Origin: Lachnospiraceae bacterium
GTDB taxonomy: Bacteria > Bacillota > Clostridia > Lachnospirales > Lachnospiraceae
NCBI GenBank assembly: GCA_047242405.1
Contig: JBKTKK010000001.1
Location: 1 to 47,246, forward strand
DNA: 47,246 bases
Reading direction: 5' to 3'
Position 1 is the first letter of the stretch. Each line of letters starts with the position of its first letter. This document shows positions 1 through 20,896 of the stretch, piece after piece. The translations under genes and the position numbers were made by a program. The notes beneath the pieces are model-generated. The model saw only the letters and a program-made list of their open reading frames with translations, ran no database searches and had not been told where the DNA came from.

Positions 1-35
1 AGGAACGGCAAAATTTTTACACTTCTACTACTTCT

Positions 36-1514
36 TTATCGAACATCAGTAAAAGAGCGGGGATTGTCATAGCCAACCATTCCACAGATTTCAATAATCT
101 TATAATCTGAGTTTTTAAGAAAATCCTGGACTTTCCTCATCCTTACTTCTGTTAGATAATCCACAAAATTTTCTCCTGTTTTTTCTTTAAACAGACGACT
201 AAGATAATTGGGATGCATATAAAACTGTTTTGCTAACATGTTTAAACTTATATTCTCACTATAATGCTGTCTGATAAAACTCTGGATTTCAGAAATAACA
301 CCTCTGTTCATCCTCTGACTACTGATCTGATCTAGTTCTGTAGTTATCCACTCTAAATATGAAGACATACAATGCATCACTTCCTGCCCATTTCCACAGG
401 AAAGCAGATACTGAAGCACTTCATTCAATCTGTCGTGCAGATTAATCTCCTCAAGACCGGCCCCCTGCAGGTGTCCATTTACTTCAATAAGAAAACGAAT
501 GCAGACGGTCTGGAATTCCAATAAACTCATCTGTTCTCTACTTTCCATAGCCGTCAACACACTTTTTATCCAACATACCGCCTGTTTTCTACTTTCTGCT
601 CCATTGAGCTTCTGTAGGAATTCCGTTATAATCTCTTGAATTTCAGAGGATTTTTCAGAAAATATTGTATCTATGTTCTTATAGAAGATAACCTTCTTAT
701 GAGTGTCTGCCAAAAGATATCTCATCGCCTGTTCTGTCTCTTTCCATGCATCCGGCAATGACTGGATTCCATCTTTCTCTTTACTTACTCCCATTGCCCA
801 ACGTTCATCCGAGCAGCATACCTGCTCCAGAATTGAAAGAAAGTATGTAAACTCTGAATCTGATTTCACCGGTACTATCGCAAACAGTGCATACACCGAA
901 CTGTCCAGTATTATGGAATCCGGAATTACCGCTGTAATACGGCTCTGCATTGCTTTTTTTTCCTGTTCCATTTCCTCTTGATTTAGATTTCTCTCTGTCA
1001 TAAATACAGAAATACCATACCATTTTCCTAGAACTGGAAGACAATATTTCTCTATCTCTGCATCTACATATCCTCTTGCTATAGAAAGAAGCAACCCTTC
1101 CATATGGTACGTATGCACCCGAACCTCTTTCTGCCTGCGGTCCAGATCCGCTGACAGCCGCCCAAGCAACTCTTCCACTTCTCCCAGATTCACTGGTTTT
1201 GTGAGATACTGAACCGCTCTGTAACGCATTGCTTCTTTCACATAATCAAAATCACTATATCCACTCAGGACTACGGTTTGAATATCCGGATAAAGTTCTT
1301 GGATCTTTTTTAGCAAATCTAATCCTGATTTCTCTGGCATCCGGATATCCGTAAGAACTACATCAATATGCATGTTCTTCAACATCAGTAAAGCTTCATC
1401 TACACTTACAGCAATTCCTGCAACCTCAAATCCATGTTCTTTCCATTTTACAAACTGAGCCATCCCACGGCAAACGATTTCTTCATCATCTACTATCAGA
1501 ACCTGATATATCAT
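36..1514 (-). CDS. YesN-like response regulator (receiver + AraC HTH), C-terminus apparently truncated
   Basis: Receiver motifs VLIVDDE and DIRMP; AraC region ISLNMLAKQFYMHPNYLSRLFKEKTG. Ends GYDNPRSFTDVR*, lacking the usual last helix (F..VFK..G.TP..YR). Start moved to ATG 1514 (MIYQVL). Confidence 0.85.
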   Translation of the reverse strand: MIYQVLIVDDEEIVCRGMAQFVKWKEHGFEVAGIAVSVDEALLMLKNMHIDVVLTDIRMPEKSGLDLLKKIQELYPDIQTVVLSGYSDFDYVKEAMRYRAVQYLTKPVNLGEVEELLGRLSADLDRRQKEVRVHTYHMEGLLLSIARGYVDAEIEKYCLPVLGKWYGISVFMTERNLNQEEMEQEKKAMQSRITAVIPDSIILDSSVYALFAIVPVKSDSEFTYFLSILEQVCCSDERWAMGVSKEKDGIQSLPDAWKETEQAMRYLLADTHKKVIFYKNIDTIFSEKSSEIQEIITEFLQKLNGAESRKQAVCWIKSVLTAMESREQMSLLEFQTVCIRFLIEVNGHLQGAGLEEINLHDRLNEVLQYLLSCGNGQEVMHCMSSYLEWITTELDQISSQRMNRGVISEIQSFIRQHYSENISLNMLAKQFYMHPNYLSRLFKEKTGENFVDYLTEVRMRKVQDFLKNSDYKIIEICGMVGYDNPRSFTDVR

Positions 1515-1559
1515 TTCATTCAACCTCTTCCCAATTGTATAATATTTACCAAACATAGT

Positions 1560-1725
1560 CTTACGGGCAATATGCTTTGCCTCACTATTCCAACATGATC
1601 TTTGCTATTAATTCGAACTCCATAATCTTCCCCATAAAGAGATGGATTCTTTGATTTACAATAACCATTTCAATACCGCTGGAATTTGGCGTAAGACTTT
1701 AGCTGCTTGTTCGATATTCTCCATA
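1560..1725 (-). pseudogene. Remnant C-terminus of a YesM-like sensor histidine kinase
   Basis: Manual translation with one frameshift gives SGIEMVIVNQRIHL(F)YGEDYGVRINSKDHVGIV, resembling the HATPase end of YesM-type kinases; lies directly upstream of the response regulator. Confidence 0.7.
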
Positions 1726-1784
1726 ATCATATCTATTATAACTCTAAAACACTTGGCTTACCAGTTCTTTGAGAAACAAAAAGA

Positions 1785-1970
1785 TGCATCCTCTGAAATT
1801 GATGAAATCGAATCCGAAATCCATCACATTATGGATACGGAAATCCAATCCCCCATCCCCACCATTCCCGGTATTGATTACCGGACGGGAGCAATGATCA
1901 TCGCCGAAATTGGCGATTTCAGCCGTTTTGATTGTGAAGATAAGATACTGCCTTATGCCGGGTCGCCAAT
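1785..1970 (+). pseudogene. IS110-family transposase internal fragment
   Basis: EIDEIESEI...TIPGIDYRTGAMIIAEIGDFSRF..EDKILPYAG resembles the IS110 Transposase_20 region; no N-terminal RuvC domain or C-terminus. Confidence 0.8.
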
Positions 1971-1982
1971 CTTGCCAGGATA

Positions 1983-2844
1983 ATGAATCAGCGTGAAATT
2001 ACTCTTCCAGAGAAACAGCGCCACTACATCGAAAAAGATGAGCTTAATCGTTGCGTATACCATAAACGGGAGATGGATGCCACAGAGCGGACACTGGTGG
2101 TCATGCATGACGCAGAAGAACTGATTGCAATCTGCTATAAAACAGGTAAGCTTGATGATACGAGCGAGTACCAACTTCTGATTCTACTTTTGAAAGAAAG
2201 AACGATACGATGACGGGAACAGACGTCTCCGCAAAAAAGAAGAAGTTGAAAACTCATCTCAAGTTTTACTAAATCCATCCGGCCCAGAGGCCTTTCGATA
2301 TAAAGCCGGCAAAAAGAACCTTGGCTATGTTGGAAATATTGTGGAATCCGTTAGTGAAAAAGGGAGCGTTATAACGGACTATGCATATGAAAAAAATACA
2401 TATGCCGACAATCAGTTCATGAAAGATTATCTAAAACAGCAGGATACTTTTACTAAAGGCGCATTCATTGTTGCAGACGGCGCTTATAGCGGTGAGACGA
2501 ATTCACAAATCGCGTCTTCCCATAATCTTAAGTTGGTGACGACGAATTTTACCGGGCGTAAACCGGATGAAGTCTATGCTGATTTTAAATTTTCTGCTGA
2601 CGGATGTATTCCGGCGAAATGTAGTTATAACCCGAAGAATGAGTGTTCCGTTGCTTACTTCAAAACAGAGGAATGTAGTTCATGCCCGTATAAAGAGCGA
2701 TGCCAACCGCGTTTTCTAAAAACAAGAGTCCGTAAGGAAGTTTCCTGGAAATCTGTAGAGAGGGCAAAACAGTTGCAATTCATGAAAACGGAAGAATTCA
2801 GCCAGTATGCCCGGTTCCGAAATGGGGTGGAAGCAATTCCATAG
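1983..2844 (+). pseudogene. Fragmented DDE transposase (IS1182/IS5-like clostridial type)
   Basis: ORFs 1983-2213 and 2341-2844 are linked by frameshifted sequence reading FRYKAGKKNLGYVGN; motifs IVADGAYSG, CSSCPYKERC, RFRNGVEAIP; truncated at both ends. Confidence 0.75.
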
Positions 2845-2867
2845 TCACCTCTCGTAGCGTTAAATTA

Positions 2868-2896
2868 TTGACAATAAACGCAATGCGTGTTATGAT
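2868..2896 (+). promoter_or_regulatory. SigA promoter with palindromic operator in the spacer (copy 1)
   Basis: TTGACA (2868-2873), 17 nt, TATGAT (2891-2896); spacer contains ACGCA-A-TGCGT. Confidence 0.8.
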
Positions 2897-2945
2897 ATGC
2901 TTAGAAGATAAAGAAAGGGACTGTAATAGCAGTAGGGTACACAAA

Positions 2946-3128
2946 ATGAACAAATTAAAAGAAGCAAGACTAAAAGCAGAACTTACACAGAAGGAAATGA
3001 GTGATATGCTTGAAATACCGGTAAGAACAATACAGGACTGGGAGCGTGAAGAACGAAAGCCACCTGTATACGTTGAAAAGTTGGTATTAAGGGAATTAGA
3101 AAGAATAATAATTGCAAAAAGCAATTGA
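2946..3128 (+). CDS. Small XRE/Cro-like HTH protein (60 aa)
   Basis: MNKLKEARLKAELTQKEMSDMLEIPVRTIQDWE..PP.YV; start at ATG 2946 because the ORF-track start lies within the promoter. Confidence 0.85.
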   Translation: MNKLKEARLKAELTQKEMSDMLEIPVRTIQDWEREERKPPVYVEKLVLRELERIIIAKSN

Positions 3129-3153
3129 AAATGCACGCAGTGCGTGTTGTAAT
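3125..3153 (+). promoter_or_regulatory. SigA-like promoter with palindromic operator (copy 2)
   Basis: TTGAAA, 17 nt, TGTAAT; spacer contains CACGCA-G-TGCGTG; diverged repeat of copy 1. Confidence 0.7.
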
Positions 3154-3183
3154 GTGTTTAGATTAAGAGAAAGAAGGGAAAAC

Positions 3184-3282
3184 ATGATAGATGATATACT
3201 TGATAACTTAATAAAGATACTTACTATCATTTCTCTTGCGTTGGCCATTGCAAAACAACTAAAAGACGAAATAGATAAATAA
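3184..3282 (+). CDS. 32-aa hydrophobic peptide, type I toxin-like
   Basis: MIDDILDNLIKILTIISLALAIAKQLKDEIDK; purine-rich SD (AGAAGGGA); one hydrophobic helix with charged tail; followed by hairpin GTGGGG-CAAATA-CCCCAC. Below the ORF-track cutoff. Confidence 0.6.
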   Translation: MIDDILDNLIKILTIISLALAIAKQLKDEIDK

Positions 3283-3353
3283 GTATCTTACAGTGGGGCA
3301 AATACCCCACACCATTCTAATGGTGAATCAATTATATCACATCACGGAGAAAT

Positions 3354-3524
3354 ATGAAAGGTAAAACTTATATTTTCAGCACGATTCTTTATATTATAGT
3401 AATAATTAATTTTGTCAATTTTGATAATATACAATTACTAGACCTAGTTATTTTGTTATTATTTTTTATTCATGTCTTTTTAATGATTTTTCACAAACGA
3501 AAAGGAGGAAAAAATGAACCTTAA
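3354..3524 (+). CDS. 56-aa two-helix membrane protein
   Basis: MKGKTYIFSTILYIIVIINFVNFDNIQLLDLVILLLFFIHVFLMIFHKRKGGKNEP; GGAGA upstream; 3' end overlaps the start of the next HTH gene. Confidence 0.55.
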   Translation: MKGKTYIFSTILYIIVIINFVNFDNIQLLDLVILLLFFIHVFLMIFHKRKGGKNEP

Positions 3525-3723
3525 GGAAATCCGCACTAGCAAAAACCTATTTGTTCCACAACTTGTTGACCTAAGCGGTTTTCCTAGACGTACCATACAA
3601 GACATCGAAAAACGTTGTGATGGACGCGTATCTACTATGATAAGGTTAGCAGATGCTTTAAATGTGAGTTTGGATGAATTATGTAAAAGCAAAGATGAAG
3701 AGAACGGCATGATCGATAAATAG
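3514..3723 (+). CDS. XRE-family HTH regulator
   Basis: MNLKEIR..VPQLVDLSG.PRRTIQDIE..LADALNVSLDEL; strong SD AAAGGAGG. Confidence 0.85.
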   Translation: MNLKEIRTSKNLFVPQLVDLSGFPRRTIQDIEKRCDGRVSTMIRLADALNVSLDELCKSKDEENGMIDK

Positions 3724-3734
3724 GATTTATAATG

Positions 3735-3770
3735 AAAAGAAAGGTGGGTTTATAGCCCACCTTTTTCTTT
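3735..3770. terminator. Bidirectional intrinsic terminator
   Basis: AAAAGAAAGGTGGG-TTTATAG-CCCACCTTTTTCTTT between convergent genes. Confidence 0.8.
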
Positions 3771-4165
3771 ATCTTTGAACCAAGTCTGAATCAAGTGCAA
3801 TCCAACCTGCACCAGATAGTAATCTGCCCCACTTTTTACTTCCTGGACCGTCTGCCTCCGCTACGACCGTATAGCTGCCATTGTCTGTAATGCGGCCTAC
3901 GATAGGATAATTCGTTCCTGGGCCTTTACGAATGTTTAAAGCTGTATCTATAACCTTTAACATGTAAGGCTTAAAAATAGATATTTGTTGCTCCTTTTCA
4001 AGCCCAAAACCGTCCACAATACCATCTACTACAGCTGCAGCAATCGCATCCTTGTTCGCAAAGTACCAGTTGCAGTCCTCGGCATTAGAGATAAAGCATG
4101 TTTCCAATAAGCCATGAGATACTCCTTGTTCTTTGCATCTGTTCTGTACCAACAACCCTTCTTTC
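3769..4165 (-). pseudogene. C-terminal part of phage endolysin (Amidase_3 end + SH3-like domain)
   Basis: LLETCFISNAED (amidase) and LNIRKGPGTNY..WGRLLSGAGWI (SH3b-like); N-terminal catalytic half is missing. Confidence 0.8.
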
Positions 4166-4700
4166 AATTGATGCATTTGTAATTGCTACATTTGGAAGAT
4201 CTATATTTTTACATGTAATATATCCAGTGCTTGATGATATACCAAACATCATTGTTCCGTTATATCTCCCGAAAAGTCCTCCTGACTGCACTTGTGTAGT
4301 TGTATTATAAATACCACTAGCTACATCCATTTCCCATGCGTTGAACTTAGTTGTAGCATATTGCCCATCTGTCAATTTAATCAGCGACGACGATTGGCTA
4401 CCTGACACAATATTTATCGAACCACCTGTTATATCTGCATTACAAGCTTTTAATGAAATTCCTTCTAATACTTTACCTTTAATCATATCTGCGGTAATAG
4501 AGCCATCTACAATTAATTCTCCAGAACTCATTCTTAACACCTGAACATTTCTAACTCGCAACGTTCCAGAAAATGAATTCCATCCATCTATTTGAATATA
4601 TACGGCAAATTCACGAGCATTAGATGGCAATGTAATAACAGAAGAAATTTCTCCATTTGTAGAGTTAGTAATCCTAGAACTTGTTTGATAATTTCGAATA
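4165..4700 (-). pseudogene. Internal fragment of a phage tail/host-specificity protein
   Basis: Gly/Ser/Thr-rich; ELIVDGSITADMI..ITGGSINI motif typical of Firmicute siphophage tail proteins; frame stays open upstream of 4630 to about 4715 with no evident start. Confidence 0.65.
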
Positions 4701-4756
4701 TAGCCTTTAACACTTTGTTATCTTGGAGCGCTTCATTCAAAGCAAATGTAAGTATT

Positions 4757-4788
4757 GTCACTCCTCACGCGGGAGTGTGGGTTGAAAT
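4757..4788 (+). CRISPR. Solitary type I-C-like CRISPR repeat (no array)
   Basis: GTCACTCCTCACGCGGGAGTGTGGGTTGAAAT: 32 nt, GTC start, 7-bp hairpin CACTCCT/GGGAGTG, 11-nt 3' tail ending TTGAAAT. No second copy seen. Confidence 0.8.
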
Positions 4789-4806
4789 AGAATAGGAGGA
4801 AATAAA

Positions 4807-6018
4807 ATGGGAGAATTAAGGACCAGAAAACGAGGGAAAACTTGGGAATACAGTTTTGAAGCTGCAAAAGTAGAAGGGAAAAGAAAAACAATTTCAAAAG
4901 GTGGGTTCCGCACAAAAACAGATGCCATTGCAGCAGGAACACAAGCCAAGGCGGAATATGATAATGCTGGGATTGTATTTACACCGTCAGAAATGTCAGT
5001 AGCAGACTATATGAATTATTGGTATGAGCAATATGTATTAGTGAATTTAAGGCCAAATACACAAAGTTCTAAAAAAAATATTATAAATAATCATATTGTA
5101 CCAAAGCTTGGTCACTATAAACTTAAAGCATTAACTCCTACTATATTACAAGATTTCATTAATCAAATTAAATTAAATGGTTTTTCAGAGAATATGCTTA
5201 TTGGAATAAAATCGTGCCTATCATCTGCTTTGTCATATGCGGTGCATCCCTGTAACTTTTTATCATCAAATCCAATGATCTATGTTAAGTCGCCTAAATA
5301 TACAGATATAAACAAAAAAAGAAATAAAGTAGGTATAAATAATTGGATTGTAACTCATGAATGTTTTGAAACAATTATCAATCGATTTAATGAAAATAGT
5401 AATTTTTATATCCCCTTAATGATAGGGTATTATGCTGGGTTAAGAATTGGAGAAACATTTGCACTAACATGGAATGATATTAATTTAAAAGAAAAGACGC
5501 TTACAGTAAATAAACAATTGATAAAGCATAACCGCTGTTGGTTTGTATCTCCACCTAAAACAAATAATTCATATAGAACAATTTATATTGGAGACATTTT
5601 AGTAAACGCTCTAAAAACTATAAAAAAAAGACAACTTGAAAACAAAATGAATTATGGGGAATTTTATTTTCACACCTATAAGCTAGATAATAACTTGATT
5701 CGCCAATCAATGCAAAATGAATTAATTACTGGAGAAGAACTTGATTTTATTTGCAAAAAAGAAAATGGGGAATTATTAACACAAGAATCATTCAAGTATT
5801 GTGCTAGAGTTATTCATTATGAATTAGAAATTAGTGAATTTCATTATCATGCCCTACGACACACACATGGAACAATATTAGCAGAAAACGGAGCTAATCC
5901 AGTAGCTGTACGAGATCGATTAGGACATGCAGATATTAAGGTCACATTAAATAATTACACCTTTAACACAAAGAAAATGGGCATCGATGCGGTCAATATA
6001 TTTGAAAATAATGCATAA
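4807..6018 (+). CDS. Phage-type tyrosine integrase
   Basis: N-terminal arm-binding region (GKRKTISKGGFRTK); catalytic GLRIGE, HALRH, RLGH and Tyr in TLNNY; SD AGGAGG; convergent on the rlmD 3' end. Confidence 0.95.
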   Translation: MGELRTRKRGKTWEYSFEAAKVEGKRKTISKGGFRTKTDAIAAGTQAKAEYDNAGIVFTPSEMSVADYMNYWYEQYVLVNLRPNTQSSKKNIINNHIVPKLGHYKLKALTPTILQDFINQIKLNGFSENMLIGIKSCLSSALSYAVHPCNFLSSNPMIYVKSPKYTDINKKRNKVGINNWIVTHECFETIINRFNENSNFYIPLMIGYYAGLRIGETFALTWNDINLKEKTLTVNKQLIKHNRCWFVSPPKTNNSYRTIYIGDILVNALKTIKKRQLENKMNYGEFYFHTYKLDNNLIRQSMQNELITGEELDFICKKENGELLTQESFKYCARVIHYELEISEFHYHALRHTHGTILAENGANPVAVRDRLGHADIKVTLNNYTFNTKKMGIDAVNIFENNA

Positions 6019-6020
6019 GC

Positions 6021-6060
6021 TTGTCAACCACTCTAAATTACGTTGACAAATGGTTGACAA
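6021..6060. repeat. Probable integrase arm-type binding sites
   Basis: TTGTCAACCA (6021-6030) is the exact inverse of TGGTTGACAA (6051-6060), plus tandem CGTTGACAAA (6041-6050). Confidence 0.65.
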
Positions 6061-6102
6061 GACTGCTTTTTCAGGACACTATAAGTTCTTTAAGTCCTTA
6101 TT

Positions 6103-7453
6103 TTACTTAGATAAAAGAACGACCGTCTCCACATGCACCGTAGATGGAAACATATCAACAGCACATGCCTTTACTACTTTATAGCCTGCTTTTTGTAAAA
6201 TTTCTAAATCTCTTATAAGACTCGTTGGCTTACAAGAAACATAAACGATACGGTCTACTTGGAAATTAATGATTTTTTCCAACGCTTTTGGATGAATTCC
6301 GTCTCTTGGTGGATCTAAAACGATTAAGTCTGGTTTATCTGTAATCTCATCAATTACCTTTAAGACATCCCCTGCGATGAATTCACAATTTTCCAAACTA
6401 TTTAATTGGGCATTGATTTTTGCTGCCTCAACTGCCTCTTTTACAATCTCAACGCCAATTACTTTCTTGGCTACGGGTGCTAAAATCTGTGCAATGGTAC
6501 CCGTACCACTGTATAAATCAAAAACCTCCTTGTCCTTCGTCTCTCCAATATAATTTCTTACGACAGAATATAATACTTCTGCACCTAGGGAATTGGTCTG
6601 GAAGAAAGAGAATGGAGTTATTTTAAATAATAAACCTAACACTTCTTCGCAAATATAATCTCTACCGTATAAAATATTCGTTTTATCACTTTGTACGACA
6701 TCGGCCAATGAGTCATTTAACGTATGCAAGACACCAACAATGGTCCCGTCTAAATCCAATTGAAGCAATCCTTTTGTAAAGCCTTGACAGTCAATTTTTT
6801 CTTGCGTCGTTGTTACTAAATCTACTAAGATATCTCCAGTTTTTGCTGCTTTACGCACTAAAAGGTGCCGGAGTACACCGGTATGTTGCATCTTCTTATA
6901 AAATGGAGTGCCTTTTTCCTGAAAATAATTCAATACAAAGGTAAGAATCTTTCTATAGTCCTTATCAACGATTCTACAGTCGTTAACCGTCACAATGTCG
7001 TGGAAACTGCCTCTTTTATGCATGCCAAGGGATAATGGACCGTCTTTTACCTCATCGCCAAAAGAAAATTCCATTTTATTACGATACCCCGTTTGGATTG
7101 GACTTCCTTTAATTCCATCAAACACATAATCTTCAACAACACTGTCCAAAAGATTTTCACTTGTTCTTCTTTTATCTTTAGTTGTACTTCATAAGGAACT
7201 GATTGATAATTACAACTATACATTGTCCAAAATGGGCACATACTCCTTCTGTTAACTCATAACTAGCAGGCTCGATTACCTCTAATAACCGCCCCTCACA
7301 CTTATCTTTTCTAACTTTATTTACAGAAAAAGAGATTTTTTGTCCAGGAATCCCATTTTTAATCACTACTTTTTTATCTTCTACATGAACGACTGCTTTA
7401 TTTGGAAAATCGACTTTTTCAACAATTCCTTCAAAAATTTGTCCTTTTTTCAT
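6103..7453 (-). CDS. rlmD: 23S rRNA (uracil-C5)-methyltransferase RlmD/RumA, two apparent frameshifts near 7150-7225
   Basis: TRAM-like N-terminus; YRNKMEF, SFFQTN, DLYSGTG, DPPRDG, YVSC, DMFP.T.HVE; pieces spread over three frames. Confidence 0.93.
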
Positions 7454-7645
7454 ATCAAACCTATCTGCGTGCTGCGATTCACGCGATCACTCTTCGTTGA
7501 ACACGCAATTTTGTCCAACTTCTAACATTTAAAAGCAGATATCATATTATCATAAAATAAGGAATTTAACAATCCATAAGAAAATCTCAATTTCTGTAAC
7601 TTTATGCTATTAACACTTTTTCCTTTATTTCAACGAAATTTACTT

Positions 7646-15699: not shown

Positions 15700-16131
15700 T
15701 TGACAACAAAAAAAAGCAAGTGAATGCACTACATGCACAACACTTGCGTTAAAATCGATTCTTTTCATTTTGATAATTAATTGGGTACAAAAAAGCTTTA
15801 TCCAAAATAAACAACAAAAAAAGAACAGAGTCTATATAGCAAACATTTTACTTTTACTACTCTTATTGACCGTTTCACAAGTTTTGCGCTAGTTGCACAC
15901 TGATTATTAAGTAATCAACTTATAAAATTTGAGCTTCAAACTCAATCAATAAGGCAATGATAGTATGCTTTGCATACTATCTGCCAATCGGCAGTTGACC
16001 CGGCTGTCCGTGTGGCCTCAACTCCTATAAGCGGAGTGGTCTAAAATATTTGCATGGAAATATCTCTATTCTTATAGCTATTCCATTACAGTTGTTCATA
16101 GGATGAAAGATTATGCTTTCTCATCCATACT
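15700..16131 (-). ncRNA. Structured 5' leader RNA of the polyamine operon (candidate riboswitch/attenuator)
   Basis: Upstream promoter, nested multi-stem pairings, two U-tract hairpins; no long ORF. Confidence 0.7.
15708..15747 (-). terminator. Intrinsic terminator within the speD leader
   Basis: RNA GCAAGUG..UGCA-UGUAG-UGCA..CACUUGC followed by U8, about 45 nt before the speD start. Confidence 0.8.
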
Positions 16132-20214: not shown

Positions 20215-20896
20215 CTATAATCCCATTTTTGCTTTTAGTGCGGCTAATTCATCTTCAACTGCTTCCTTAGGCGTCCCATCATATTTTGCCATCAAGTCCT
20301 CTACGCCATCCTCCTCTGCCTTTGAAGCATTTAATTCCGCCATAGCATTTGCTGTATCTAACATTTTGTTTGCTTTATCTTCCATACGGTCAAACGCAGA
20401 AAGATTATCGGCAGCTCCACTAATACTTGAACCTATTTTATGTCCACGCTCTTGGGTCTTAGCAACCGCAACCTTTGCTTTAATTGCATCTCTTCTAGAA
20501 TTTAAAGTAGCAATATCCTGCACCAATTTATCATGCATTTGACGCATTTTTGCTGCATTATCTGCTGCTAATCGGTATGTCTGTTCCAAAGCGGTCTGTT
20601 TTTCTACTAATGCACTTTTTTCGTCAAAAATTGTTTTGCATCTGCATCGTACCAGCCATCACTGCCTTTTCTGCGTATATCTGCATTTTTGATACTTCTG
20701 CAATGCATTCATCCAACTCTCTTTTTGCACGGTTTTCTTCTGCCATTATTGAGGCTGTTTCTGCTTTTACTTTCCCCAAATCACTTTCTAAATTTCTCAA
20801 ATACTGATCAATCATTTTTGCAGGATCTTCTGCCTTATCCATCAACGCATTAATATTAGCAGACATAATGTCTTTAAATCTTTGAATAACACCCAT
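20215..20896 (-). CDS. pspA: PspA/IM30 family protein, frameshift near 20640
   Basis: RFKDIMSANINALMDKAEDPAKMIDQYLR; AFDRMEDK; DELAALKAKMG; split into two ORFs. Confidence 0.9.

What the first reader, a model, noticed from the sequence alone, without database searches (positions are those of the whole stretch)
4757..4830. Solitary type I-C CRISPR repeat placed directly on the integrase ribosome-binding site
Seen: one 32-nt unit GT-CACTCCT-CACGC-GGGAGTG-TGGGTTGAAAT in the integrase sense orientation. It ends 5 nt before the SD (AGGAGG, 4794-4799) and 18 nt before the ATG; I see no second repeat and no cas gene in the window. Known: Cas5d cuts I-C repeats after nt 21 leaving an 11-nt 5' handle, and solitary repeats on mobile elements can act as RNA anti-CRISPRs (Racr). 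Inference: cleavage would give an RNA starting UGGGUUGAAAU whose ~34-nt pseudo-spacer contains the integrase SD and start codon. Cas5d/Cas7 loading could then both decoy host Cascade and alter integrase translation, tying integration/excision to host CRISPR status. Caveat: a deletion just upstream may have removed further repeats.
Basis: partly seen in the sequence, partly recalled or inferred. Interest (0 to 1): 0.9.

Follow-up and report, generated by a model that had tools for sequence, protein, structure and literature searches.

The report
Lone CRISPR repeat beside prophage integrase
A single genuine type I-C CRISPR repeat sits just upstream of the integrase gene of a badly decayed prophage; it belongs to the known class of solitary repeats that phages use as RNA decoys, and nothing shows that it controls the integrase.

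Summary
GTCACTCCTCACGCGGGAGTGTGGGTTGAAAT lies at 4757-4788 (+), 5 nt before AGGAGG and 18 nt before the integrase ATG. It is the only copy in the window and in the 449-contig, 75%-complete MAG. It is a real type I-C repeat: it matches 30 of 32 bases of array repeats that flank csd1-cas7-cas4-cas1-cas2 in Lachnospiraceae, and it has the Cas5c substrate layout. The MAG carries cas3 and the 5' part of cas5d at a contig end.

The setting is a prophage remnant at the 3' end of a rumA-like gene. A truncated tail-fibre gene breaks off at 4695/4696, 61 nt upstream of the repeat. The endolysin is also truncated, and the lysogeny genes upstream of int are missing.

The proposed coupling to integrase translation has no support:
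- 0 of 61 integrase-homologue loci carry such a repeat, including a same-genus int-rumA locus.
- No promoter was detected upstream.
- The two bases that set this copy apart weaken the predicted canonical hairpin.
- Other solitary copies of this repeat family also sit 0-45 nt before co-oriented ORFs.

Verdict: a new member of the known SRU/Racr kind, probably a relic. Interest is low to moderate.

The parts
4757..4788 (+). Solitary type I-C CRISPR repeat (SRU). Layout: GT overhang; stem 4759-4765 paired with 4771-4777, with a U.G pair at the top; pentaloop CACGC; 11-nt tail TGGGTTGAAAT at 4778-4788.
   Evidence: sequence and uniqueness. (30 of 32 to array repeats beside I-C cas genes). (Cas5c substrate layout, from the paper). 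(folding).
4696..4756 (.). 61 nt of unique sequence between the tail-fibre breakpoint and the repeat. It has no leader-type TTTGCT end and no detected promoter.
   Evidence: breakpoint. (no other copy in the MAG or in fetched loci). (leader motif in 51 of 94 first-repeat flanks, absent here). (no + strand promoter).
4794..4799 (+). Shine-Dalgarno AGGAGG of the integrase gene. Homology to integrase relatives begins here.
   Evidence: (the G202 DNA match starts at 4794).
4807..6018 (+). Tyrosine integrase, 403 aa, apparently intact.
   Evidence: Arm-DNA-bind_4, Phage_int_SAM_3, Phage_integrase. (phrog_1 integrase). (42% identity to C. difficile phage integrases).
6021..6060 (.). Cluster of three GTTGACAA motifs (one inverted) just downstream of int. 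These are probably integrase-binding sites of the att region, and the G202 int-rumA locus has similar, not identical, motifs at the same place.
6103..7453 (-). rumA-like (uracil-5) RNA methyltransferase, the integration target. It is split here into ORFs of 348 and 91 aa, against 458 aa in the same-genus genome G202.
4088..4717 (-). 5'-truncated tail-fibre-like gene fragment (open frame without a start codon). 4163-4695 is 92% identical to own contig C4:27550-28082.
   Evidence: phrog_18983 tail fiber, E 3.7e-5.
3772..4185 (-). C-terminal fragment of an amidase-type endolysin with an SH3_3 domain. 3753-4170 is 78% identical to C4:30112-30535.
2868..3723 (+). Two small XRE-type HTH genes (2868-3128 and 3514-3723) with two 56-aa ORFs between them. 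They are part of the mobile remnant. No Acr homologue was recognised.
   Evidence: (79% match of 3144-3685 in same-genus G208).

Best explanation
This is a genuine solitary type I-C CRISPR repeat (an SRU) carried by a temperate-phage-type integrative element that inserted at the 3' end of a rumA-like gene and has since decayed.

Shown: the repeat's identity, its solitude, the prophage-remnant setting, and a cognate cas3-cas5d fragment in the host MAG.

Inferred, by analogy with RacrIC1: in the intact phage the repeat lay at the end of the lysogeny operon, just before int, and was co-transcribed with it. Host Cas5c would bind the hairpin and the UGG-containing tail and cut after nt 21. The RNA would then tie up Cas5c and Cas7 in non-productive complexes, acting as an RNA anti-CRISPR decoy.

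In the present locus the upstream lysogeny genes and any promoter are gone, and two copy-specific substitutions (C9T, A25G) disfavour the canonical hairpin. The copy is therefore most likely an inactive relic. Its closeness to the integrase RBS reflects compact phage gene spacing and is not evidence of a regulatory link.
For: - Repeat identity: 30 of 32 to array repeats beside csd1-cas7-(cas4)-cas1-cas2. It has the same orientation as those arrays relative to their cas genes.
- Cas5c substrate layout with U22-G23-G24 intact (passages of PMC8524198).
- Solitary.
- Mobile-element setting: phage-type integrase, truncated tail-fibre and endolysin genes, and att-type motifs 3' of int beside rumA, with similar motifs in a same-genus int-rumA locus.
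- In the intact phage phiCDKH01, int is the last gene of a co-directional lysogeny block, with the lysin convergent downstream. A repeat just 5' of int would therefore be operon-internal.
- Host subtype match: cas3 plus cas5d at the end of contig C8. Cas5d relatives of 55-72% identity use repeats of the same family.
- Precedent: 2,103 viral SRUs are reported, 83% matching the host subtype, and RacrIC1 lies 11 nt behind acrIC5 on a bicistronic RNA (passages of PMC10651486).
- Other solitary copies of this repeat family lie in phage or MGE intergenic gaps. L126 is 9 nt after one gene and 26 nt before the next. L124, L215 and L211 are further cases.
- Relic status: breakpoint at 4695/4696; no + strand promoter; canonical hairpin -9.3 against an alternative fold at -10.3 kcal/mol; probability of the canonical pairs 0.08 alone and 0.18 in context, against 0.76 with the two bases set back and 0.78 for the L061 array repeat. 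The T9+G25 combination occurs in 0 of 2,397 array copies.
Against: - No transcription, cleavage or inhibition data exist. The public runs gave only low-depth DNA contigs that do not bridge 4742-4875, and no usable RNA.
- SRUs are described as often lying directly behind a promoter. None was found here, unlike the G425 copies, which carry TTGCGA-N17-TATAAT.
- No acr homologue was recognised nearby, though that test was weak: Pfam, PHROGs and a PDB sequence search of three small ORFs.
- The host I-C locus is cut by a contig end. No Cas1, Csd1, Cas7 or array was found in the 75%-complete MAG. The Csd1 search rang in no control genome. The host's own repeat is therefore unknown.
- No closer relative of this element was found: the best integrase identity is 52%, and the exact 32-mer has 0 matches in metagenome contigs. 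It therefore cannot be shown that the repeat was native to the intact phage and not acquired by a later rearrangement.
- Thermodynamic prediction does not decide protein binding. T9 alone and G25 alone both occur in real arrays.
Confidence: 0.55

Rival explanations
1. Array remnant. The repeat is the last surviving unit of a CRISPR array (the host's, or a phage-borne mini-array) that was destroyed by the deletion or rearrangement whose junction lies at 4695/4696. It was never selected as a stand-alone decoy.
For: A breakpoint lies 61 nt upstream. The copy carries two deviations from the family consensus, as decaying repeats do. The T9 variant (31 of 32 to this copy) occurs inside a degenerate array with at least 8 repeat variants at G424:C13. 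No promoter was found. Mini-arrays with one spacer and a degenerate second repeat exist in related genomes (L213, L012, L009).
Against: No second repeat, full or degenerate, lies in spacer phase on either side. The bases where a preceding repeat would sit (about 4689-4720) show no likeness on direct reading, and no second repeat of this family was found within about 350 nt on either side. The upstream flank lacks the TTG[CG][TAG] leader end seen in 51 of 94 first-repeat flanks. No cas gene lies in the window. The 3' handle, which is usually the first part to decay in terminal repeats (recalled), is intact apart from A25G.
Confidence: 0.22
2. The repeat is a dual-purpose 5'-UTR element. Cas5c cuts 29 nt before the ATG, Cas5c and Cas7 load onto a pseudo-spacer that covers the SD and start codon, and this both decoys Cascade and makes integrase translation depend on host CRISPR status.
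For: The geometry is as stated. The substrate features are present. The host has cas3 and cas5d. Six of 12 solitary copies of this family have a co-oriented ORF start 18-45 nt downstream and a seventh starts at 0 nt (7 of 12 within 0-45 nt), so pseudo-spacers covering RBSs recur. In a 62-nt fold the 5' arm CUCCU can pair with the SD.
Against: Not conserved: 0 of 61 integrase-homologue loci have it, and the same-genus int-rumA locus lacks it. No promoter was detected and the upstream operon is deleted. Pairing between the SD and the repeat falls to about 0.12 probability in a 131-nt context, and folds are no better than shuffles (z 0.62 and -1.10). Short gaps to the next ORF are expected in compact phage genomes, and no control for this was run. 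The element is a remnant with no second att end, so regulated excision has nothing left to act on.
Confidence: 0.07
3. Recombination scar or recombination site. Either the repeat was picked up from a host array by spacer-protospacer or repeat-mediated recombination, or it serves as the integrase's attachment site.
For: Passages of PMC10651486 mention the older suggestion that SRUs may enable viral integration into CRISPR arrays. In L211 a canonical leader plus one repeat abuts the ATG of an MGE gene with 0 nt between, upstream of a serine recombinase. This shows that repeat-MGE junctions of this kind exist.
Against: The integrase's att-type motifs (three GTTGACAA) and the conserved rumA 3' end lie on the other side of int, and the G202 locus has similar motifs at the same place. 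No second repeat copy marks another element end. The left flank is neither a leader nor a spacer-plus-repeat. No integrase relative is adjacent to a repeat.
Confidence: 0.08
4. Assembly artefact. The contig is a chimera joined through a CRISPR repeat or through a spacer-protospacer match in the metagenome.
For: The window is a contig of a fragmented, 75%-complete MAG. The only DNA run that holds it does not bridge 4742-4875.
Against: Both flanks are unique and neither looks like array sequence. A 32-35-nt overlap is short for a join at the usual final k-mer sizes (general knowledge). The run's contigs are fragmentary everywhere because depth is about 3, so the gap carries no information.
Confidence: 0.05

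Closest known systems
RacrIC1, the type I-C RNA anti-CRISPR of a Bifidobacterium pseudocatenulatum prophage (Camara-Wilpert et al. 2023, PMC10651486; passages read)
   Same: A single type I-C repeat on a prophage. It lies in an intergenic gap of a protein-coding transcription unit, in the sense orientation, in a host that carries I-C cas genes.
   Different: RacrIC1 lies 11 nt downstream of acrIC5, has a mapped promoter and TSS, and was shown to inhibit I-C. This copy lies upstream of an integrase, has no recognised acr neighbour or promoter, sits in a decayed element, and is untested.
Solitary repeat units (SRUs) of viral genomes (Faure et al. 2019, known here only as cited in PMC10651486; SRUFinder survey in that paper)
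   Same: An intergenic match to a known CRISPR repeat on an MGE with no further full or partial repeat nearby. The subtype matches the host cas genes.
   Different: [quoted passage not shown] None was found here, whereas four of the five G425 copies seen in passing share a leader-like flank, two of them with a clear promoter.
Virus-borne mini-CRISPR arrays (Medvedeva et al. 2019, PMC6858448; search listing and start of abstract only)
   Same: CRISPR repeats carried by a virus without cas genes, relying on host Cas proteins.
   Different: Mini-arrays have at least two repeats that enclose a spacer against a rival virus. Here there is one repeat and no second, even degenerate.
cr-like regulatory RNAs: CreA of CreTA (recalled) and the repeat-like elements of Shmakov et al. 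2023 (10.1101/2023.03.03.530964; search listing and start of abstract only)
   Same: A stand-alone repeat whose downstream pseudo-spacer gives Cas proteins a regulatory rather than an immune role.
   Different: Those elements lie in cas loci and act in trans through partial complementarity to a promoter. This repeat lies on an MGE remnant far from cas genes, and the proposed action is in cis on its own mRNA.

Membership tests
Type I-C CRISPR repeat (Cas5c/Cas5d substrate) | 32-nt unit with a 2-nt 5' overhang, 7-pair stem, pentaloop and 11-nt 3' tail; U22-G23-G24 directly after the cleavage site | tested here: met
   Direct reading: GT / CACTCCT / CACGC / GGGAGTG / TGGGTTGAAAT. The top pair is U.G instead of C-G. 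Feature list from passages of PMC8524198.
Type I-C CRISPR repeat (Cas5c/Cas5d substrate) | Sequence likeness to repeats of arrays that adjoin I-C cas genes, in the same orientation | tested here: met
   30 of 32 to L026 (43 copies) and L061 (18 copies). Csd1, Cas7, Cas1 and Cas2 genes lie beside them, and Cas4 in L053.
Type I-C CRISPR repeat (Cas5c/Cas5d substrate) | The canonical hairpin is the favoured fold | tested here: not met
   Canonical -9.3 against alternative -10.3 kcal/mol. Canonical pair probability is 0.08 alone and 0.18 in context, against 0.78 for the L061 repeat and 0.76 after setting T9 and G25 back. This is a prediction only.
Type I-C CRISPR repeat (Cas5c/Cas5d substrate) | Cleavage by the cognate Cas5c after nt 21 | not testable with these tools
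   No RNA data. The runs found hold only contigs.
CRISPR array | Two or more repeats at regular spacer spacing | tested here: not met
   One copy at up to 8 substitutions in the MAG. No degenerate copy within about 350 nt.
CRISPR array | Leader abutting the first repeat (in this repeat family it ends in TTG[CG][TAG]) and neighbouring cas genes | tested here: not met
   The flank ends ...GTAAGTATT. The motif is present in 51 of 94 first-repeat flanks. No Cas family hit among 51 window ORFs.
SRU / Racr candidate | Intergenic solitary repeat on a virus, prophage or plasmid, not associated with other full or partial repeats or with cas genes | tested here: met
   (solitary). (prophage remnant). 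It lies between a gene fragment and int.
SRU / Racr candidate | Host encodes the CRISPR-Cas subtype that the repeat mimics | tested here: inconclusive
   cas3 (C-terminal domains) and the first 159 codons of cas5d lie at the end of contig C8. No Cas1, Csd1, Cas7 or array was found in the 75%-complete MAG. That the two contigs belong to one organism rests on binning.
SRU / Racr candidate | Own promoter directly upstream, or co-transcription within an operon | tested here: not met
   No sigma-70-type site on the + strand of 4300-5000. Upstream genes are on the opposite strand and truncated.
SRU / Racr candidate | acr gene within about 1 kb (an enrichment, not a requirement) | tested here: inconclusive
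   No hit for the small ORFs in Pfam, PHROGs or PDB sequences. No dedicated Acr library was available.
SRU / Racr candidate | Expressed RNA binds Cas proteins and lowers interference | not testable with these tools
   An experiment is needed.
cr-like regulatory RNA (CreA-type) | Located in or beside a cas locus, with a pseudo-spacer partly complementary to a regulated promoter | tested here: not met
   No cas gene in the 47-kb window. The pseudo-spacer is simply the int 5' UTR and first codons.

The most novel reading that the evidence does not exclude
Solitary type I-C repeats on mobile elements may form a general class of Cas-responsive 5'-UTR elements. They are placed 0-45 nt before co-oriented start codons (7 of 12 copies seen here). 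Cas5c cleavage and Cas7 coating of the pseudo-spacer would then act in two ways: they would titrate Cascade subunits, and they would change translation of the downstream gene. In the window that gene is the integrase, so the lysogeny/excision decision would sense whether the host's CRISPR system is active. A variant of this idea is that the repeat plus the first ~34 nt of int yields a working guide that directs host Cascade against sibling elements sharing the int 5' end but lacking the repeat.
Probability: 0.06. Interest if true: 0.7.

Novelty: new member of a known kind. Interest (0 to 1): 0.3.

Why it matters
If the copy is active, it would add a Lachnospiraceae gut-prophage example to the RNA anti-CRISPRs. 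It would also be the first seen inside an integrase 5' UTR, a position from which it would be expressed with the lysogeny operon. As it stands, it is mainly a clean example of how such repeats persist as fossils in decayed prophages. It also shows that closeness of a solitary repeat to a ribosome-binding site is common and should not by itself be read as regulation. The side observation may be the better material for experiments: one Acetatifactor MAG carries five dispersed solitary copies, four sharing a leader-like flank, two of them with a strong promoter.

Tried and rejected
- Rfam: no family at the repeat, at gathering or at E up to 10.
- Other copies of the repeat:
  - 0 of 200 other family genomes (one per genus) and 0 of 8 same-genus genomes, at up to 3 mismatches.
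  - The exact 32-mer has 0 matches in metagenome contigs.
  - The 22-nt core has 0 matches in viral contigs.
- blastn of 4640-4830 against 50,697 phage records: no match.
- The 61-nt left flank and the right flank against the MAG and all fetched loci: only chance-level words.
- Likeness of either flank to array leaders or trailers: none beyond 9-15-nt words.
- att-type direct repeats in 1-7600: none convincing.
- Public sequencing runs:
  - One low-depth DNA run (share 0.43) holds fragments of both this contig and the C4 prophage but does not bridge 4742-4875.
  - The one RNA run laid only under 90% likeness on the endolysin and int/rumA parts, so it comes from relatives.
  - There is no information on transcription or RNA ends.
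- SD sequestration by the repeat's 5' arm appears in a 62-nt fold but dissolves in a 131-nt context, where the partners are spread over 4704-4708, 4731-4734 and 4761-4765. It was rejected as evidence.
- Chance resemblance was rejected.
- The repeat as the integrase's att site was rejected, because the conserved GTTGACAA cluster and the rumA junction lie 3' of int.
- Not done: structure prediction, complex prediction, the search for homologous proteins, the search of protein representatives and the protein atlas were not used. They give no genomic context, and the question was about DNA/RNA context.
Full report
**1. The observation**

The 32-mer GTCACTCCTCACGCGGGAGTGTGGGTTGAAAT lies at 4757-4788 on the + strand. 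The start codon is confirmed by N-terminal alignment with homologues.

The repeat occurs once in the window at up to 3 mismatches, against 0 in 100 shuffles. It occurs once in the whole MAG, at up to 3 mismatches and at up to 8 substitutions. The MAG has 449 contigs, is 75% complete, and the window is its whole contig C1. No degenerate second repeat lies within about 350 nt on either side. None of the 51 window ORFs scanned hits a Cas family.

**2. It is a real type I-C repeat**

Nearly all are arrays, with up to 94 copies, and many are in Lachnospiraceae.

- The nearest array repeats are L026 (43 copies) and L061 (18 copies). They differ from the window copy at two places, C9T and A25G.
- These arrays, and L053 and L012, lie directly downstream of Csd1(Cas8c)-Cas7-(Cas4)-Cas1-Cas2 genes and in the same orientation.
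- The unit has the layout given for Cas5c substrates: 2-nt overhang, 7-pair stem, pentaloop, 11-nt tail, cleavage after nt 21, and recognition of U22-G23-G24 (passages of PMC8524198). All these features are present, with U.G in place of C-G at the top of the stem.
- T9 alone occurs in 90 and G25 alone in 15 of 2,397 array copies. The two together occur in 0 (overlapping loci mean some copies are counted twice).
- A T9 copy (31 of 32) sits in a decaying array at G424:C13.
- Rfam has no match at the site.

**3. The host**

Contig C8 of the same MAG ends with a cas3 gene followed by the first 159 codons of cas5d. The cas3 assignment rests on Cas3-like_C_2 and Helicase_C hits in the last 489 residues scanned. 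The cas5d gene (PF09704, 97 bits) is cut by the contig end.

Cas1, Csd1 and Cas7 were not found, and my crude array finder saw no array. In a 75%-complete short-read MAG this does not show absence, and the Csd1 search rang in no control genome.

The closest Cas5d relatives have I-C arrays with repeats of the same general family:

| Genome | Cas5d identity | Repeat |
|---|---|---|
| G011 | 72% | GTCGCTCCCC...TGGATTGAAAT |
| G418 | 61% | GTCACTCCCCACACGGGGAGTGTGGATTGAAAT |
| G204 (same genus) | 55% | ...TGAGTTGAAAT |

The subtype match between repeat and host is therefore likely, but the host's own repeat is unknown.

**4. The surroundings**

The integrase (4807-6018, 403 aa) has Arm-DNA-bind_4, SAM-like and catalytic domains. 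It matches phrog_1 and is 42% identical to integrases of C. difficile phages such as phiCDKH01.

Its 3' end faces the 3' end of a rumA-like methyltransferase gene. Between them lie three GTTGACAA motifs at 6021-6060. The int-rumA locus of same-genus genome G202 has similar, not identical, motifs at the same place. This is the att side of the element.

On the other side of the repeat, all on the minus strand, lie two gene fragments:
- A tail-fibre-like open frame without a start codon (4088-4717).
- The C-terminal part of an amidase/SH3 endolysin (3772-4185).

Both have fuller counterparts in a prophage on own contig C4 (92% and 78% identity). There the two segments are about 2 kb apart, whereas here they abut. 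The tail-fibre homology stops exactly at 4695/4696. The 61 nt between that break and the repeat match nothing else.

Further left are two small HTH genes and transposase fragments. No second att end or GTTGACAA cluster exists on that side.

The order lysin(-), tail fibre(-), gap, int(+), att, rumA is what a prophage of the phiCDKH01 type would show after losing everything between the tail-fibre gene and the end of its lysogeny operon. In phiCDKH01 the regulator and several small genes precede int on the same strand.

**5. Is the position on the integrase RBS conserved?**

I collected integrase homologues from three sources:
- 400 family genomes: 46 with E up to 1e-40, best identity 52%, 29 loci taken.
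- IMG/VR: 2 loci.
- JGI metagenomes: 29 loci. Two of these contigs end about 50 codons into the gene and match those first residues at 78-79%.

Together with the G202 locus this makes 61 loci and 248,838 nt. None contains anything within 9 substitutions of the repeat, or an I-C-type handle. Aligned upstream regions share nothing before the SD. G202 has a plain A/T-rich leader.

All these relatives are distant, so they do not show what the intact ancestor of this element carried. They do show that the family of integrases has no such leader element.

**6. Can it be expressed and folded?**

The consensus scan finds no sigma-70-type promoter on the + strand of 4300-5000. By eye, the best candidates are 3-of-6 hexamers. 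The genes upstream run the other way and are broken.

The flank does not end in the TTG[CG][TAG] motif that closes 51 of 94 first-repeat flanks in this repeat family. It is therefore not a leader.

Folding results:

| Sequence folded | Result |
|---|---|
| L061 array repeat | canonical hairpin, -11.5 kcal/mol, ensemble frequency 0.78 |
| Window copy, alternative fold (CACGC/GUGUG plus CC/GG) | -10.3 kcal/mol, favoured |
| Window copy, canonical hairpin | -9.3 kcal/mol |
| Window copy, canonical pair probability | 0.08 alone, 0.18 in a 131-nt context |
| Window copy with both copy-specific bases set back in silico | canonical pair probability 0.76 |

Both substitutions therefore push away from the Cas5c substrate fold. 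Proteins can capture minority folds, so this lowers but does not abolish the case for activity.

A pairing between the repeat's CUCCU arm and the SD shows up in a 62-nt fold. It falls to about 0.12 in the longer context, where the SD pairs mostly elsewhere. No fold beats its shuffles (z 0.62 and -1.10).

**7. How other solitary copies of this family sit**

Solitary copies of this family occur in several settings:
- Viral contigs L124 and L126.
- Beside IS66 and VapE-type genes.
- Five times in one Acetatifactor MAG, G425.

L126 lies 9 nt after a DUF2800 nuclease gene and 26 nt before an SSB gene. This mirrors RacrIC1, which sits 11 nt behind acrIC5 on a bicistronic RNA.

Of 12 solitary copies, the window included, 7 have a co-oriented ORF of at least 60 aa starting 0-45 nt downstream, at 0, 18, 26, 32, 36, 36 and 45 nt. 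Two more have one at 110-113 nt and three have none. The window's geometry is therefore ordinary for this class. I ran no control for what compact genomes give by chance.

**8. What it most likely is**

It is a member of the known class of solitary repeat units on phages. Such units were shown for several subtypes, including I-C, to act as RNA anti-CRISPRs (PMC10651486, passages; review PMC11656645, passages).

The likely original mechanism is co-transcription with int at the end of the lysogeny operon, followed by Cas5c binding and cleavage after G21. The RNA would then sequester Cas5c and Cas7 in dead-end complexes. This mechanism is inferred, not shown.

In its present state the copy has lost its promoter, has a weakened hairpin, and sits in an element without a second end. 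It is probably a fossil.

I put 0.55 on this reading. The alternatives are:
- A mere array remnant: 0.22.
- A recombination scar or recombination site: 0.08.
- An assembly chimera: 0.05.

**9. Novelty and score**

This is a new member of a known kind. The one unusual point is adjacency to an integrase start. It is unsupported as a function and is matched in geometry by other copies. Interest is 0.3.

The boldest reading still open is that I-C SRUs are Cas-responsive 5'-UTR elements, or self-derived guides against sibling elements. I give that about 0.06. It would deserve about 0.7 if true.

Noticed in passing
G425 loci L209, L211 (=L034), L213, L215, L217: One Acetatifactor MAG holds five dispersed solitary copies of the same I-C repeat on four contigs. 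Four of them share a leader-like flank (...GGATATTATTGTTTNTTTTTGC[TA]). Two of these also have a TTGCGA-N17-TATAAT promoter overlapping the palindrome TTGCGACGTCGCAA. In L211 the repeat is followed with 0 nt by the ATG of a HicB-like ORF, upstream of a large serine recombinase. L213 is a one-spacer mini-array. This looks like a family of promoter+leader+single-repeat cassettes on mobile elements.
   Followed up: partly
L128, L133, L135, L141, L190 (upstream of integrase homologues); L132: Several integrase homologues share a motif GTGTAT(T/C)TTTTATACCCA 20-60 nt before their RBS. L132 instead has GCGACGTCGCAAC there, the same palindrome as in the G425 cassettes. These are probably operator or promoter elements of this element family. 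Both are absent from the window.
   Followed up: no
window 6103-7453 (-): The rumA-like methyltransferase gene is split into ORFs of 348 and 91 aa, whereas the same-genus genome G202 has one ORF of 458 aa. This is a frameshift or stop in the integration-target gene.
   Followed up: partly
G000 contig C4:27550-30535: The same MAG holds a second prophage with fuller versions of the tail-fibre gene (92% identical) and the endolysin gene (78% identical). The window copy has lost about 2 kb between them.
   Followed up: partly
window 15988-16042 (-): Rfam match to SpF59 sRNA / ldcC RNA (62.5 bits, E 5.6e-9), upstream of the polyamine gene cluster: AdoMet decarboxylase, Orn/Lys/Arg decarboxylase, spermidine synthase, agmatinase, saccharopine dehydrogenase-like gene, carboxynorspermidine-decarboxylase-like gene.
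   Followed up: no
window 1642-2844 (+): Fragments of an IS110-family transposase (113 aa) and a DDE_Tnp_1_6 transposase (open frame 2194-2844) lie between the AraC-type response regulator and the prophage remnant. This is further decay or insertion debris.
   Followed up: no
window 20215-20896 (-): A PspA/IM30 homologue is split into two ORFs (90 aa covering profile positions 2-81 and 124 aa covering 105-217).
   Followed up: no
L125 (IMG/VR contig of 143 kb): A large viral contig encodes a Cas7 (PF05107) homologue and several irregularly spaced, partly degenerate repeats of this I-C family, each small group preceded by TAATATAATAT-type promoter-like sequence. This is apparently a phage-borne I-C system with multiple mini-arrays.
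   Followed up: no
G424:C13:41090-41787 (L210-L218): An 11-repeat I-C array in which at least 8 different repeat variants occur, including the T9 variant that is 31 of 32 to the window copy. This is an array in decay.
   Followed up: no
L009 (Lysinibacillus alkalisoli, 3930-5760): A short I-C array of this repeat family (three or more repeats plus a degenerate one) is followed about 450 nt later by a convergent tyrosine integrase that is 25% identical to the window's.
   Followed up: no
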